A stretch of DNA of 64,000 nt from the human T2T-CHM13v2.0 reference genome, Homo sapiens. A program made the position numbers and the translations under genes. Numbering within the stretch: position 1 is the stretch's first letter; each line of letters starts with the position of its first letter. Below, one piece after another: positions 1 to 12,385 of the stretch. Where the stretch lies: the NCBI RefSeq assembly GCF_009914755.1, contig NC_060928.1. One strand, given 5' to 3'. The notes beneath the pieces are model-generated. The model was given only the letters and a program-made list of their open reading frames with translations. It was not told the DNA's origin and made no database searches.

Positions 1-3000
1 CCTCACCAATAAAGAAAGACATTCTGACCTTGAATGACGTTAATACTCATAATAATAAACCATATAAACTAGGAGATGGCCTTAACAGTTCCAGAGAAAA
101 TCCTAACATGTCTAGAGATGATGGTACCTTATTAATTGCTAATTCCTCTACCATTATGAAGTCGGTTGCCCCTTTCATTCATTCTCAAGCAACAAACTTG
201 GTGAAAAAGAACTCTTTGGCAGAGGTCCCAAAACTTGTTTTTATAATAAGGCTACCCCAGAAGCTTTGACAATAGCCATCATCACTGTCTCTCAAGGAAA
301 TGACACCATATTTTATATCCCAATAAATGAATTGGAAAACTTTTTCAAAGAAGATATAATATTGAACTATGAAGCAGTTTCCCAAAATGAGGTAAGCATT
401 ATGGTAGAAGAAGAAGACACACTTGAAAAAGGAAATGTCAGGGATTATATTTATGCTATACCTATTGCAGGTGACAATGTTCCTAAAGGTAACAACTTGT
501 CAGCTGAACAGTATTCTATCAACTGTAATACATATGACTCCACTACATTCAGAGGAACAACCAAAGGCAGAGCTGACCGACCTGAATTTGAGAATTCTTC
601 ATCATCTTATAAGGCTGAAATCTCAAAACCTCTACTTGGAAAATTTACTCCCAAAGTTCAAAGAAAAGTGATTGTAAGAAATAGCAATAGCGGTTCTGAT
701 CATGATACATCCTTTGGTGGTGATATACTTTATCCAATAATGAAAGAAAATGTCCCAGAAGGATATATCTATTCTCCTGAAAGAGACTTTACCATTACAA
801 CATCAGATTTTAGTATTCCAATGAAAAATAATGTAAATCCTGCTCTGGAAGGTACTGCATTACTCAGTAAAGGAACTTTCAGCAATCATTATTCATCCTA
901 TACTGATGAGCAAAGTGATCCAGCAACAGGAAAAGACAAAATTGCTACAGGTATCATAACAAACTCTCATACAGGCATCATACCTGTGACTTCCTTCACT
1001 ACTGTTCCTTCTAAAGACATAAATAAGGAAAACTATTACCATATATCTGAAACAGGCACTCCTCTCTCACTGGAATATGAAAACAAAATAAGAGATGATT
1101 CCCTTATTTTTCAGCTTGGGACTACTCTGGCAAAGGAAAATAATGTGGATAATATGGATTTGGTCATCATGGAACCTGATGAAAGTAGCTCTGAATATAT
1201 TTCAAATAAGTATGTCTTTGAAATAGAAAATGAAGAAAATAGCCCTATTGTAAATGCTATTTCATTTACACATGAACCCAGTAGATTTCTATCACATATA
1301 CCCTTCTCCAATCATGAGGCCTCAAGGAGTCTTCTGTATCAAATAACTCACCCTGAGTTTGAAACTAAAGAAAAATACCAAACCATTATTATTAAAGAAG
1401 AAAGCTCTGACTCTAGTATTGTTGCCTCTTCTTTCAAAGATTATACCAAAAACTTCAACACTCAGCATCCGAAAACCATGGCTCCTTCCCTAATTGATGC
1501 AGGTGAGACTTCTTTTCCTGAGTTTCTAGAAAGAACATCTGCAGGAAAGGACACTCTAAGTGCAGATGATGCCACCATCATTTTCCCTGAAGTTTCTGGT
1601 TTAGAAAATGAAAAAATCAAGTATTTCTTTGTACCTCACATGGAGACAATTGTTACCATGGGAGAGGGCAGGACATTGGGTGCTATCCCTACTGATCATA
1701 GTGTGGTGACTACCCCCATAAAAACTCAAGGTCATTTCTACAGGAAAGGCATTTCATCCAATATTCCTGACACAGCTGCCCTGCAGTTGGCAGACATCAT
1801 CACACTGGAGAAATCCAAACTCAATGAAGATGAAATGGATTTAGCTGAAGTGACCCCTTCAAAGGATCATGATAACCCATTGGCTCAGGTTGTTGCCTAC
1901 CAAGTGGGGACTATCTCTGATGTCAGTAAAATTACCAACAGTATAATCAAAGCAAATTCAATTACTTCTCTTAATCTGGTTAATGACACCAAAATGCCAC
2001 CAAAGGCCAGCATTGTTTCACTTAATGCCCCTGCCTTTGAGTCTGACAGCAATGACAATAATGTCACTACCATGCCTAAGGTAGATGGTGTCAGCTCCAT
2101 AAAATTAAGATTTCTATTAATTCCCTATCAAAAAGTAACTAGAATGGCACTTCCTCTTGGTGAAAATGATGAATCTTTATCTGATACACTGGTGACATTA
2201 GAGGTATCAGAGCCACTGGGAGAACACTCTACCATCACCAACCAAAACTGGGAAATCACCAAAGCACAAAGTGCCTTTCAGCCTTTTCCCATGGTCTTTC
2301 CTATTCCTCTGGTAGATCCTGCTACTTTTTCAGAGAAACCCATAAATGTAGCCACTGACATACCTACCACTGAAAATGAGGTCATTAATGATAAAACTAA
2401 CACCAGGGTCTTTTCACCTAATATGGTCCTTCAACCTGTAATCCACAAAAATGAAGGAATAAATAAAACTCCTAACTATGATGTAAATCAAGCAGTTATT
2501 AAATTTTCTGCAAAAGAAATTGCTACTGCAGGAACTAAGGCTAATGCATTCCTCAATAGCAATAAGGCTGTTGCAGAAGATGAATTCTATATTTCTGAAG
2601 CCAATATTCCAGTGAACTTAAGAGATATAAATGCAGTGGGAGTTGATCCTTTCATCCTTAAGCCTGATGCGGCTTCTGCTGAACAGAAAGCACCTGAAAA
2701 TTCCAAAGAAACATTTTACCTTGCTTCCACAATGAGCACAACAAAGCAGACAAAGATCAGGGTTAGGGGCTCATTTTCTCTTGATAATGATTACTTAGAG
2801 AGGTCCATCACAAACTCTTATGATAAAGTGTATCAACTACCCCTGAAATCAACTCTTTTGCCCACTAATTTTATTGAAATCTATAATTCTGAACTTGCTT
2901 CAGCACTCATTATAGGAGAGAGCAACATAATGACTGATGACTTTATCATATCTAATGATATAATTGGTCTATCTGACGAAGAAACCATTTCACCTGACAA

Positions 3001-12000: not shown

Positions 12001-12385
12001 TCTTCTAACAACACTGGAAAAAGACTCATTCTAGCATTAACACTAAACTGCAATCTGCTTTCATTTAATTAGCTAAACCTTAAGGTTGATAACACAAGGA
12101 TGTTTGATACAATTAACGTTATTATTAAAAATACTCCCTCTGAAATTGAGAATATAATTCTTAAAAATAATGCAGTTATCCACATCTTGATTCTTGTTTC
12201 TGGGTGAATTTTGACACATGACACCAGCTCCCTGCCACTGACAACCCTCCCTGTCTTCTGGGTTAAAATAACAGCCTGCAGAAAAAACATTCCTAAAACA
12301 ATTTTAACCTACAAAACTTGAGACTCTCACTATTACTCAAGTAAATTCAAGAAGAAGTAAGAAATACAATGAAAAAGAGAACACT
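1..12385 (+). pseudogene. Decayed giant single-exon ORF, Ser/Thr/Asp/Glu-rich, made of diverged ~2.04-kb tandem modules; starts upstream of the window
   Basis: Chain of same-strand ORFs (30-269, 266-3340 [1024 aa], 3186-3611, 3966-5168, 5223-5675, 6201-6800, 6742-7608, 7911-9575, 9673-10011, 10191-10556) broken by frameshifts and stops. Motifs recur at ~2 kb spacing. No recognisable transposon inside. The 10.6-12.4 kb part is more decayed and less certain. Confidence 0.75.
266..3340 (+). CDS. 1024-codon open segment of the giant S/T/acidic relic ORF (translation unproven)
   Basis: 3 kb stop-free frame in AT-rich DNA; low-complexity, CABS1-like composition; first in-frame ATG near 401; ends through an apparent frameshift near 3285. 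Confidence 0.45.
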   Translation: MTIAIITVSQGNDTIFYIPINELENFFKEDIILNYEAVSQNEVSIMVEEEDTLEKGNVRDYIYAIPIAGDNVPKGNNLSAEQYSINCNTYDSTTFRGTTKGRADRPEFENSSSSYKAEISKPLLGKFTPKVQRKVIVRNSNSGSDHDTSFGGDILYPIMKENVPEGYIYSPERDFTITTSDFSIPMKNNVNPALEGTALLSKGTFSNHYSSYTDEQSDPATGKDKIATGIITNSHTGIIPVTSFTTVPSKDINKENYYHISETGTPLSLEYENKIRDDSLIFQLGTTLAKENNVDNMDLVIMEPDESSSEYISNKYVFEIENEENSPIVNAISFTHEPSRFLSHIPFSNHEASRSLLYQITHPEFETKEKYQTIIIKEESSDSSIVASSFKDYTKNFNTQHPKTMAPSLIDAGETSFPEFLERTSAGKDTLSADDATIIFPEVSGLENEKIKYFFVPHMETIVTMGEGRTLGAIPTDHSVVTTPIKTQGHFYRKGISSNIPDTAALQLADIITLEKSKLNEDEMDLAEVTPSKDHDNPLAQVVAYQVGTISDVSKITNSIIKANSITSLNLVNDTKMPPKASIVSLNAPAFESDSNDNNVTTMPKVDGVSSIKLRFLLIPYQKVTRMALPLGENDESLSDTLVTLEVSEPLGEHSTITNQNWEITKAQSAFQPFPMVFPIPLVDPATFSEKPINVATDIPTTENEVINDKTNTRVFSPNMVLQPVIHKNEGINKTPNYDVNQAVIKFSAKEIATAGTKANAFLNSNKAVAEDEFYISEANIPVNLRDINAVGVDPFILKPDAASAEQKAPENSKETFYLASTMSTTKQTKIRVRGSFSLDNDYLERSITNSYDKVYQLPLKSTLLPTNFIEIYNSELASALIIGESNIMTDDFIISNDIIGLSDEETISPDNVIFIENMNNINVKRYVASVEKDNVTPYEVISFTNDLSAEPDVFFPTGKNNPNNMDLITTGLDDGSLDYVSERNAFYIGKEGKSPKSKIPTFAQDKNLQSIWISYSLIYCTCH

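What the first reader, a model, noticed from the sequence alone, without database searches (positions are those of the whole stretch)
1..12385. Fossil giant exon: more than 12 kb of decayed + strand coding sequence upstream of CABS1
Seen: near-continuous same-strand ORFs of up to 1024, 554 and 400 aa, all S/T/D/E/N-rich and joined by frameshifts. Near 3285 the conserved FGSH motif moves to another frame. No recognisable Alu, MIR or L2 occurs in 12 kb, while the rest of the window is full of them; the only insertion is the youngest L1 class. Inference: this was a protein-coding exon of at least 3500 codons, under constraint until fairly recently. It would encode a giant disordered acidic or mucin-like protein in the SCPP cluster. 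I know of no annotated human gene here.
Basis: partly seen in the sequence, partly recalled or inferred. Interest (0 to 1): 0.9.

Follow-up and report, generated by a model that had tools for sequence, protein, structure and literature searches.

The report
Dead giant secretory gene beside CABS1
Just upstream of human CABS1 lie the broken remains of a huge, almost single-exon gene for a secreted protein that is still open in carnivores, bats, ruminants and a tree shrew, and that I could not find described in print.

Summary
Plus-strand open frames of at least 100 codons cover 74% of window 1-12385, against 3% in shuffles. The longest is 1065 codons; the longest in any shuffle was 175.

It is the relic of one giant coding exon. 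The exon runs from 1108 bases upstream of the window to about 11033. It follows an intact 18-codon signal-peptide exon with good splice sites.

A protein search found 21 relatives at 50-57% identity, and 17 of the 21 have 3,500-4,802 residues. Named species include wolverine, two bats, goat, ibex and tree shrew.

Against these guides the human copy carries about 18 frameshifts, about 8 stops and one deletion of about 745 codons. No second copy exists in the human genome. It is therefore a unitary pseudogene.

The protein has a signal peptide, a 1,500-residue N-terminal part, four and a half ancient repeats of about 690 residues, and almost no cysteine. It matches no Pfam or PDB family and is not related to CABS1.

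Lesion density suggests death roughly 15-45 million years ago, not recently. A tamarin copy is also frameshifted. A second fossil, of a mucin-like gene, lies 15-20 kb upstream.

The parts
1..11033 (+). Relic of the giant coding exon. It continues upstream of the window to window -1108 (C4:73654892). Before it lie a 522-nt intron and the signal-peptide exon at window -1704..-1631 (C4:73654296-73654369; coding part -1684..-1631).
   Evidence: Frameshift-aware alignment to P0004, P0005, P0012, P0017 and P0018; C-terminal end; signal exon and splice sites.
143..3340 (+). Longest surviving open frame (1065 codons, stop to stop). It covers the end of the N-terminal region and all of repeat unit R1.
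   Evidence: It is 57% identical over 1016 residues to P0004. The lesion-free stretch 235-3299 is longer than expected for 26 evenly scattered lesions (P about 0.015, post hoc).
1229..3226 (+). Repeat unit R1 (equivalent to P0004 residues 1543-2210).
   Evidence: Unit HMM; mapping to the window.
3236..5266 (+). Repeat unit R2. It starts at the frameshift at about 3272-3299 and carries stops at 3609 and 3852 and a frameshift at about 5119-5149.
5276..7314 (+). Repeat unit R3, the most decayed part, with frameshifts near 5300, 5610, 5811, 5924, 5985, 6190 and 6770.
7324..9398 (+). Repeat unit R4, with frameshifts near 7597 and 7817. It holds the 598-codon open frame 7779-9575.
9414..10712 (+). 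Partial fifth unit R5. Stops at 9573, 10009, 10036, 10554 and about 10680; frameshifts near 9716 and 10169.
10713..11033 (+). Unique C-terminal tail, badly decayed (frameshifts near 10761, 10832, 10883, 10900 and 10949). The likely ancestral stop is TAA 11031-11033, which overlaps an AATAAA.
11034..12395 (+). Flank with no coding homology to the relatives (former 3' flank or intergenic DNA).
   Evidence: No guide aligns past about 11114. GC falls to 0.32-0.33.
12396..17882 (+). Young L1 insertion downstream of the exon, flanked by the 15-base duplication AAAGACCCAAACAGG.
   Evidence: L1 ORF1 and ORF2 translations; 98-99% identity to other genomic copies; duplicated flanks; the hub's repeat mask.
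18478..20614 (+). CABS1, the neighbouring gene on the same strand. It shows no detectable relationship to the giant gene.
   Evidence: No BLAST hit at 1e-3. No hit to the unit HMM. phmmer best score 2.0 bits, against up to 4.4 for 20 shuffles. No CABS1 Pfam match in 5 full-length relatives.

Best explanation
Window 1-11033, together with 1.7 kb upstream of the window, is the unitary pseudogene of a giant secretory gene that lies between CSN3 and CABS1.

In mammals that keep the gene, a small exon encodes an 18-residue signal-peptide segment. It is spliced in phase 0 to one exon of about 12-14.4 kb, giving a secreted protein of about 3,900-4,800 residues. That protein has an N-terminal region of about 1,500 residues, four full repeats and one partial repeat of about 690 residues, and a short tail. 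It is acidic, rich in S/T/N/D/E/K/I and almost free of Cys and Trp.

The repeats arose before these mammals diverged. Since then the protein sequence has drifted fast: only 49-60% identity between orders. The reading frame has nevertheless stayed open. This suggests (inference) that selection acts on length and composition, as for other extracellular, poorly structured products of this locus in saliva, milk or on the tooth surface. The tissue and the function are not known.

In the human lineage the frame was lost and the exon has since decayed neutrally. It now carries about 18-21 frameshifts, about 8 premature stops and one deletion of about 745 codons. The first stop comes 70 codons into the big exon. 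No full-length product can be made. The absence of transposon insertions is a legacy of the exon's long coding past.

Shown: the homology, the lesions, the gene structure, the single-copy status and the repeat architecture. Inferred: secretion, disorder, the date of death and the function.
For: - Far more open frame than chance gives.
- 21 relatives at E <= 1e-3 with 50-57% identity; 17 of the 21 have 3,500-4,802 aa. Eight carry species names: Gulo gulo, Glossophaga mutica, Phyllostomus discolor, Capra hircus, Capra ibex, Tupaia chinensis, Cervus hanglu, Camelus ferus.
- Four unnamed contigs give uninterrupted ORFs of 4,553-4,802 codons with no internal gaps of 25 aa or more; the only gaps are at the N- or C-terminus.
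- Collinear alignment of human DNA to P0004 over 3,973 codons at 56.4% identity, with 18 frameshifts, 6 true in-frame stops plus 2 stops in inserted codons, and a 745-codon deletion. Four other guides give the same lesions.
- The human signal exon reads MKILVLTVTILNFVVYFL followed by GTAAGT, with a TTTCAG acceptor 20 nt before the ATG. It matches the Tupaia N-terminus at 16 of 17 residues. A polypyrimidine tract and TAG acceptor sit at the big exon. SMR3A exon 2 has the same 54-nt coding part and donor.
- P0004 and P0027 read straight from the signal peptide into the big exon. In human a 522-nt intron lies between the two, so those contigs are most simply spliced mRNA.
- All matches in the human genome fall inside this locus: 4 of 4 and 5 of 5.
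- Only 22 proteins among 1.84 billion representatives match at E <= 1e-3, and all look like pieces of the same gene.
- Each of 67 units from 20 proteins is closest to the same-numbered unit of P0004 (median 60% identity, against 35% for the next-best unit). The order is kept in 20 of 20 proteins.
- No interspersed repeats lie in the exon.
- A tamarin protein (P0047) and an unnamed 85%-identical ORF (P0046) end in the human's other reading frame. These are frameshifts of their own.
Against: - I had no DNA of the relatives, so there is no dN/dS estimate and no map of lesions on a tree.
- I could not check that the relatives lie between CSN3 and CABS1 in their own genomes.
- Named gene models may hide lesions behind invented introns. 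Tupaia lacks 178 residues that P0004 has.
- Identity of 49-60% between orders is close to what weak or no constraint on sequence would give. The case for function therefore rests on the preserved frame.
- No expression, proteomic or tissue data were available to me.
Disorder rests on one stored ESMFold model and a borderline composition test.
- S-x-E motifs, a hallmark of SCPP proteins, are not enriched: 30 observed against about 34 expected by my own arithmetic from the composition.
- The lesion-free 3,064-nt stretch (P about 0.015) is unexplained.
- Merged gene models (goat P0016; walrus LOC105757737 in Pajic et al. 2022) leave open that the exon can also belong to a longer transcript.
Confidence: 0.88

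Rival explanations
1. The human locus is not fully dead. Either the 1065-codon frame or the short frame made of the signal exon plus 70 codons (about 88 residues, ending at the TGA at window -898) is still expressed and useful.
For: The signal exon, its ATG and both splice sites are intact. The stretch 235-3299 is lesion-free more than expected (P about 0.015). P0001 stands for 40 member sequences at 90% identity or more. Two short 'ncbi' records, 97% and 89% identical, overlap the exon.
Against: The 1065-codon frame is cut off from the signal exon by 2 stops, 3 frameshifts and the big deletion. A tamarin copy and a second primate-like copy are frameshifted inside this stretch, so it is not conserved among primates. 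RefSeq annotates nothing here (hub table). The P value is post hoc.
Confidence: 0.05
2. The giant exon was never an independent gene. It was an internal exon of a still larger mucin gene that starts about 20 kb upstream (a K-rich part and a T/S-rich part) and may even run into CABS1, as in the walrus 7,112-aa 'mucin-17-like' model.
For: Goat model P0016 joins a T/S/A-rich N-terminus to the giant exon. Table S1 of Pajic et al. 2022 lists walrus LOC105757737 at 7,112 aa with a signal peptide and a CABS1 Pfam domain. That size fits mucin part + giant exon + CABS1. Human keeps a fossil of the mucin part on the same strand 15-20 kb upstream.
Against: The giant exon has its own conserved signal-peptide exon in human, Tupaia, two bats, ibex and deer, and in the contigs behind P0004 and P0027. 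P0004 and P0027 read from that exon straight into the big exon. About 13.6 kb of repeat-bearing DNA separates the two fossils in human. The giant exon ends in its own stop, about 1.9 kb before CABS1 once the L1 is removed. I could not see the walrus sequence beyond 400 letters.
Confidence: 0.1
3. The open frames are a by-product of base composition or of a repeated or transposable element, not of a gene.
For: The DNA is AT-rich (GC 0.32-0.40) and internally repetitive.
Against: Shuffles never exceeded 175 codons or 11% coverage. The - strand has only 16% coverage. The region is unmasked and matches none of the window's repeats. The human genome holds no other copy. Collinear relatives with open frames exist in other orders.
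Confidence: 0.01
4. The relic has been kept for a non-coding role, for example as a CABS1 or SCPP-locus regulatory region or a lncRNA. On this view its freedom from insertions reflects present constraint, not past constraint.
For: There are no insertions across about 13.8 kb in a repeat-rich neighbourhood. CABS1 starts about 1.9 kb downstream once the L1 is ignored.
Against: The hub lists no RefSeq functional elements. Lesion counts fit neutral decay. A 2.2-kb deletion and a 5.5-kb L1 next to the exon were tolerated. AT-rich DNA attracts few Alus (recalled).
Confidence: 0.05

Closest known systems
SCPP-locus secretory genes on 4q13 (caseins, ODAM, FDCSP, SMR3A/B, OPRPN, MUC7)
   Same: Chromosomal place and strand. 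A small exon carries a short 5'UTR and 54 nt that encode the signal peptide, ending in a phase-0 GTAAGT donor, as in SMR3A in this window. Nearly Cys-free, biased composition. Fast sequence turnover and lineage-specific loss, which papers read here describe for this locus (PMC12457735, passages).
   Different: Ten to fifty times larger. Built of repeats of about 690 residues. Not P/Q-rich (P 6.4%, Q 2.4%). S-x-E not enriched. No Pfam family of this locus matches. No detectable sequence similarity to CABS1.
Human CSN1S2A/B casein pseudogenes (unitary losses in the same cluster)
   Same: A secretory gene of the same cluster that is intact in other mammals and disabled in the human lineage. PMC12457735 (passage seen) dates those losses within primates.
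   Different: Those are small multi-exon genes that are annotated and published. This one is a relic of about 12 kb from a single exon, with no RefSeq annotation, and I found no paper on it.
'Orphan' lineage-specific mucins between CSN3 and AMTN (Pajic et al. 2022, PMC9417175)
   Same: Same interval. Large exon, signal peptide, S+T of about 21%. The walrus 'mucin-17-like' model of 7,112 aa in their table S1 probably contains this gene (inference from size and its CABS1 domain).
   Different: No short P/T/S tandem repeats. Units of about 690 residues that are only 25-40% alike. Not lineage-specific: found in four orders of Laurasiatheria and Scandentia, with a relic in primates. The main text of that paper does not mention CABS1, walrus or pseudogenes.
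CABS1 (the neighbouring gene)
   Same: Adjacent on the same strand, coding in one large exon, acidic and S/T/D/E-rich.
   Different: No signal peptide exon of this kind and no detectable homology. About 395 residues against about 4,800.
Giant single-exon proteins such as MUC16 or AHNAK (recalled, for scale only)
   Same: A coding exon of more than 10 kb built from long diverged repeats.
   Different: No sequence relationship was found: Pfam and PDB searches gave nothing. Different locus.

Membership tests
Unitary pseudogene | Intact orthologue in other species | tested here: met
   17 of 21 relatives have 3,500-4,802 aa. Four are uninterrupted ORFs of 4,553-4,802 codons. They are collinear with the human DNA.
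Unitary pseudogene | Disabling mutations in the species in question | tested here: met
   About 18 frameshifts, about 8 stops and one deletion of about 745 codons, consistent across 5 guides.
Unitary pseudogene | No functional paralogue or parent copy in the same genome, and not a processed copy | tested here: met
   All 4 of 4 and 5 of 5 matches in the T2T genome lie in this locus. The intron between the signal exon and the big exon is retained.
Unitary pseudogene | Same syntenic position as the intact orthologues | not testable with these tools
   No mammalian genomes other than human were available to me. The only indirect hint is that gene models in goat and walrus merge the gene with its neighbours in this interval.
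SCPP gene family (features recalled from the work of Kawasaki and Weiss) | Lies in the 4q13 SCPP cluster | tested here: met
   The hub table places it between CSN3 and CABS1.
SCPP gene family | Signal peptide plus the first residues of the mature protein on a small exon that ends in phase 0 | tested here: met
   54 coding nt, a GTAAGT donor after a complete codon, and the same layout as SMR3A exon 2.
SCPP gene family | S-x-E phosphorylation motifs, typically near the N-terminus | tested here: not met
   30 S-x-E in 4,802 residues, about what the composition predicts (about 34 by my arithmetic). No clear conserved S-x-E is seen at the mature N-terminus in the sequences.
SCPP gene family | Sequence similarity to another SCPP member | tested here: not met
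   No Pfam family above cut-off for 7 human frames and 5 relatives. 22 hits among 1.84 billion representatives, all of the same gene.
SCPP gene family | Intrinsically disordered product | tested here: inconclusive
   The ESM Atlas model of fragment P0035 has pLDDT 0.21 and pTM 0.13. Charge-hydropathy puts 30 of 95 windows on the disorder side. AlphaFold jobs were not accepted.
Mucin | Tandem P/T/S-rich repeats in one exon | tested here: not met
   TRF finds 0 arrays in 1-12500. P 6.4%, S+T 21.5%. Units of about 690 aa are 25-40% alike.
CABS1 family | Match to CABS1 sequence or to the Pfam CABS1 domain | tested here: not met

The most novel reading that the evidence does not exclude
The CSN3-CABS1 interval holds the remains of two large secretory genes that primates lost. 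One is a so far undescribed giant gene: about 4,000-4,800 residues from one exon of 12-14 kb, with five units of about 690 residues and no known domain. It is at least as old as the common ancestor of Laurasiatheria and Euarchontoglires and is still open in carnivores, bats, ruminants and tree shrew. The other is the K-rich, T/S-rich 'orphan mucin' that has been treated as lineage-specific. If so, the SCPP cluster had a much larger ancestral gene set than the published maps show, and the giant gene is a new mammalian protein family awaiting a tissue and a function.
Probability: 0.55. Interest if true: 0.7.

Novelty: new member of a known kind. Interest (0 to 1): 0.62.

Why it matters
The SCPP cluster is a textbook case of gene birth and loss tied to teeth, milk and saliva. 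Its published gene maps place nothing between CSN3 and CABS1 in the passages of PMC12457735 and PMC9417175 that I read.

A conserved frame of 14 kb there would be the largest gene of the cluster. It would add a new unitary human pseudogene, and it would probably have escaped screens that start from human or mouse gene sets (my inference; no rodent relative appeared).

The finding gives an easy, testable target. First, find where carnivores, ruminants or bats express a secreted protein of about 500 kDa (size estimated from about 4,800 residues). Second, ask what primates gave up when they lost it.

It also cautions that some 'lineage-specific' mucins of this interval may be old genes that were lost elsewhere.

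Tried and rejected
- CABS1 as a relative or source of the exon: rejected. No BLAST hit at 1e-3, no unit-HMM hit at E 10, and phmmer 2.0 bits against up to 4.4 for 20 shuffles.
- Tandem-repeat or satellite reading: rejected (TRF 0 rows).
- Known domains: none in Pfam above cut-off for 7 human frames or 5 relatives. The PDB profile search gave one hit at E 0.068, which is not meaningful.
- RGD or furin-type sites as functional clues: RGD occurs at non-conserved places in 3 of 6 proteins and is absent in the other 3. R-x-[KR]-R occurs at most once per protein. Dropped.
- AlphaFold of unit R1 with alignment A1: not accepted three times.
- ESM Atlas: three queries not held and one answered. Its structure hits all have TM below 0.31 and name no fold.
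- Literature: no hit for six locus tags or accessions of the relatives; 'casein gene cluster' + CABS1 gave 0 papers; SCPP + 'unitary pseudogene' gave 0 papers; CSN3 + CABS1 + uncharacterized gave 1 unrelated paper.
- Motif searches for the giant protein in the supplements of PMC9417175 found nothing. Those files are stored with sequences cut at 400 letters, so this says nothing either way.
- Dating from amino-acid identity to the tamarin fragment (79% over 170 aa): too few residues to separate neutrality from weak constraint.

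
Full report
**The observation**

Stop-to-stop frames on the + strand of window 1-12385 reach 1065, 598, 437 and 296 codons, with six more of 113-204 codons. Frames of at least 100 codons cover 74% of the + strand and 16% of the - strand. In 200 order-2 Markov shuffles the + strand coverage averaged 3% (highest 11%). The longest frame averaged 121 codons (highest 175). GC is only 0.32-0.40, so stops should be frequent.

TRF finds no tandem array. 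The region is internally repetitive at long range: 4474-7090 matches 6498-9168 at 65% identity, and the frames are 27-44% identical as proteins. None of the 20 repeat-masked stretches of the window matches window -1799..12395. The same queries give 90 non-self matches in the rest of the window and 52 in the 18.2 kb further upstream.

**Relatives**

A word-indexed search of 5.8 billion proteins with the 1065-aa frame gave two hits in the near-length class: the human ORF itself and P0002, a 1,560-aa open frame at 60% identity.

In the longer class it gave 21 proteins at 50-57% identity, 17 of them with 3,500-4,802 residues. Eight carry names:
- Gulo gulo (4,090 aa)
- Glossophaga mutica (3,948 aa)
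- Phyllostomus discolor LOC118499675 isoform X2 (3,928 aa)
- Capra hircus (4,321 aa)
- Capra ibex (4,137 aa)
- Tupaia chinensis (4,274 aa)
- Cervus hanglu (2,077 aa)
- Camelus ferus (1,959 aa, partial)

All are called uncharacterized or hypothetical. Four unnamed contigs give single uninterrupted ORFs of 4,553-4,802 codons whose only gaps of 25 aa or more lie at their N- or C-termini.

An exhaustive HMMER scan of 1.84 billion cluster representatives with one repeat unit found only 22 proteins at E <= 1e-3. All are pieces of the same gene. One, P0027, is 32-39% identical to 12 relatives compared, so it is a more distant orthologue. No rodent and no long primate protein appeared.

**Gene structure in human**

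I fetched 20 kb upstream of the window and aligned human DNA to the full-length relative P0004 with a frameshift-aware dynamic programme of my own. Homology runs collinearly from window -1108 to about 10981, over 3,973 codons at 56.4% identity. Looser settings carry it to a TAA at 11031-11033 that overlaps an AATAAA.

P0004 residues 1-17 match a separate small exon at window -1684..-1634. That exon has:
- a TTTCAG acceptor
- 20 nt of leader
- an ATG
- 54 coding nt that read MKILVLTVTILNFVVYFL
- a GTAAGT donor after a complete codon

A 522-nt intron with a polypyrimidine tract and a TAG acceptor then precedes the big exon. The exon matches Tupaia at 16 of 17 residues. SMR3A exon 2 in this window has the same 54-nt coding part and the same donor.

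P0004 and P0027 read from the signal peptide straight into the big exon. Those contigs are therefore most simply spliced mRNA, which is indirect evidence of expression in some species (inference).

**Lesions**

With P0004 as guide the human copy has 18 frameshifts, near -672, -463, 235, 3299, 5119, 5300, 5617, 5811, 5924, 5989, 6191, 6771, 7594, 7817, 9714, 10169, 10761 and 10834.

In-frame stops lie at -898, 3609, 3852, 10009, 10036 and 10554. Two more stops sit in inserted codons near 9573 and 10680. A seventh stop reported at -1111 is the splice acceptor, not a lesion.

About 745 codons are missing (P0004 residues 162-911), with the junction near -677. Guides P0018 (Tupaia), P0005, P0012 and P0017 give the same picture: 15-19 frameshifts and the same stops within their span. 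The same deletion appears as one or two long runs with P0018 and P0017 and as fragmented runs over the same span with P0005 and P0012. Three more frameshifts appear in the tail under looser penalties.

The first stop comes 70 codons into the big exon.

**Single copy**

Searches of the T2T genome with P0002 and with the 598-aa frame found 4 of 4 and 5 of 5 matches inside this locus. The search tool warns that weak matches may be missed. With the intron retained, this is a unitary pseudogene, not a duplicated or processed one.

**The protein**

An HMM built from three units of P0004 and rebuilt from 64 units of 20 proteins has 695 positions. It finds full units at P0004 1543-2210, 2214-2882, 2886-3579 and 3583-4249, and a partial unit at 4255-4692. 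Only weak traces appear in residues 17-1540.

In 20 other proteins, each of 67 units is closest to the same-numbered unit of P0004. Median identity is 60%, against 35% for the next-best unit, and the order is kept in 20 of 20 proteins. The duplications therefore predate the divergence of these mammals, and there is no concerted evolution. Across units, 62 of 693 columns are at least 70% conserved, scattered as short motifs.

Composition of P0004:
- S 11.4%, T 10.1%, N 8.0%, K 7.4%, I 7.1%, D 6.6%, P 6.4%, E 6.2%
- one Cys in 4,802 residues; W 0.2%
- D+E 613 against K+R 493
- S-x-E 30 and N-x-S/T 53

By my own arithmetic from this composition, neither motif count is above expectation.

Identity between orders is only 49-60%. 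The two phyllostomid bats are 87-88% identical, and goat and ibex 97-99%. The C-terminal 550 residues are absent from the bat and goat sequences.

No Pfam family passes its cut-off, and a profile search of PDB sequences finds nothing meaningful. CABS1 is not detectably related. The only structural evidence is the ESM Atlas's own model of fragment P0035, with pLDDT 0.21 and pTM 0.13. A crude charge-hydropathy test is borderline. AlphaFold was not available.

**When the gene died**

On the human reading path, 281-369 new stops are expected per unit of neutral divergence (kappa 4 or 2). So 6-8 stops imply d = 0.016-0.029. Eighteen frameshifts imply d = 0.013-0.030 for assumed indel-to-substitution ratios of 0.14-0.06. 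Poisson error widens both ranges.

Recalled human-lineage divergences are about 0.006 since chimpanzee, 0.017 since orangutan, 0.03 since macaque and 0.05 since marmoset. On these figures the loss is clearly older than the human-chimpanzee split and falls somewhere between the great-ape stem and the simian stem.

The shorter class of the protein search gave 8 hits at E <= 1e-10. They include:
- Saguinus oedipus P0047 (173 aa, 79-81% identical)
- unnamed ORFs P0043 (402 aa, 89%), P0044 (240 aa, 87%, on a 3,838-nt contig) and P0046 (170 aa, 85%)

The tails of P0047 and P0046 read in the human's other frame. Those copies therefore have frameshifts of their own inside the stretch that is open in human. 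P0044 starts at the same codon as the human ORF although its contig is five times longer than the ORF. This is consistent with shared upstream lesions (weak inference). The gene is thus decayed in at least one New World monkey too.

**Surroundings**

- The L1 at 12396-17882 lies 1.4 kb past the exon's stop. It has a 15-base target-site duplication. Its 3' end is 98-99% identical to 39 other copies, so it is young. Without it, CABS1 would start about 1.9 kb after the giant gene.

- Upstream, outside the window, L005 (C4:73636001-73646000) carries + strand frames of 160-230 aa rich in K. These are followed by T/S/A-rich frames of 459, 159, 110 and 114 aa between L005 positions 222 and 4639.

- By eye these upstream frames match the first 400 letters printed for walrus 'MUC17-like', and the printed letters of the seal and pig 'MUC5ac-like' and 'MUC19-like' entries, in sequence file S1 of Pajic et al. 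2022 (PMC9417175). The T/S-rich N-terminus of goat P0016 also hits them (E 1e-5). This is a second fossil gene.

- Table S1 of that paper lists the walrus model at 7,112 aa with a signal peptide and a CABS1 domain. That size fits a merger of mucin, giant gene and CABS1. I could not verify this because stored sequences are cut.

**Literature**

I saw passages of PMC12457735, which surveys the SCPP locus in 61 vertebrates. It calls CABS1 a conserved gene of unclear origin and says nothing of a gene next to it in those passages.

For PMC9417175 I saw passages, part 1 of supplementary file 2 (the tables), and search passages from both supplementary files. Its main text has no occurrence of CABS1, walrus, pseudogene or remnant.

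I also saw passages of bioRxiv 10.1101/2025.11.10.687682, on shared human-chimpanzee polymorphisms between CABS1 and SMR3A.

Eight searches found no description of this gene (plus the finds above). The library holds only open-licence papers and preprints. Figures and PDF supplements could not be read, so a depiction in a figure cannot be excluded.

**Verdict**

It belongs to a secretory gene of the SCPP locus that other mammals keep open. The human copy is dead. Its death is old rather than recent. The protein's tissue and function remain unknown.

Noticed in passing
L005:222-4639 (C4:73636222-73640640; window about -19779..-15361), + strand: A second fossil gene. K-rich frames of 160-230 aa are followed by T/S/A-rich frames of 459, 159, 110 and 114 aa. 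By eye they are homologous to the 'lineage-specific' SCPP-locus mucins of walrus, seal and pig printed from Pajic et al. 2022. The goat P0016 N-terminus also hits them (E 1e-5). This suggests that mucin is ancestral and was lost in primates.
   Followed up: partly
window 235-3299: A lesion-free stretch of 3,064 nt. It is longer than expected if 26 lesions were scattered evenly over the exon (P about 0.015 in 20,000 simulations, post hoc). Other primate-like copies are broken inside it.
   Followed up: partly
window 12396-17882: A 5.5-kb L1 with a long ORF1, an ORF2 broken by two stops, and a 15-base target-site duplication. Its 3' end is 98-99% identical to 39 other genomic copies. It sits between the giant gene's end and the CABS1 promoter.
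   Followed up: partly
window 20615-44272 (between CABS1 and SMR3A): A 2026 preprint (bioRxiv 10.1101/2025.11.10.687682, passages seen) reports five linked polymorphisms shared by humans and chimpanzees within 822 bp of this interval. They are fine-mapped to a MUC7 eQTL. I did not locate them in the window.
   Followed up: no
P0048 (maps to window 191-472) and P0050 (window 1133-1270): Two short 'ncbi' records without names. They are 98% and 89% identical to the relic over 94 and 46 residues, with unrelated sequence at both ends. They could be chimeric clones or transcript fragments.
   Followed up: no
Relatives P0011-P0014, P0016, P0017 against P0004 residues 4194-4802: The bat and goat or ibex sequences stop after unit R4. 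Carnivore-like sequences go on through a partial fifth unit and a 110-residue tail. The C-terminal 550 residues therefore seem dispensable or lineage-specific.
   Followed up: partly
Table S1 of PMC9417175: walrus LOC105757737: A 7,112-aa 'mucin-17-like' model with a signal peptide and a CABS1 Pfam domain. It is probably a merger of three neighbouring genes, including the giant one. The goat model P0016 makes a similar merger.
   Followed up: partly
window 60544-61950, + strand: A 469-codon open frame inside the masked stretch 59838-62285, presumably an L1 ORF. Not examined.
   Followed up: no
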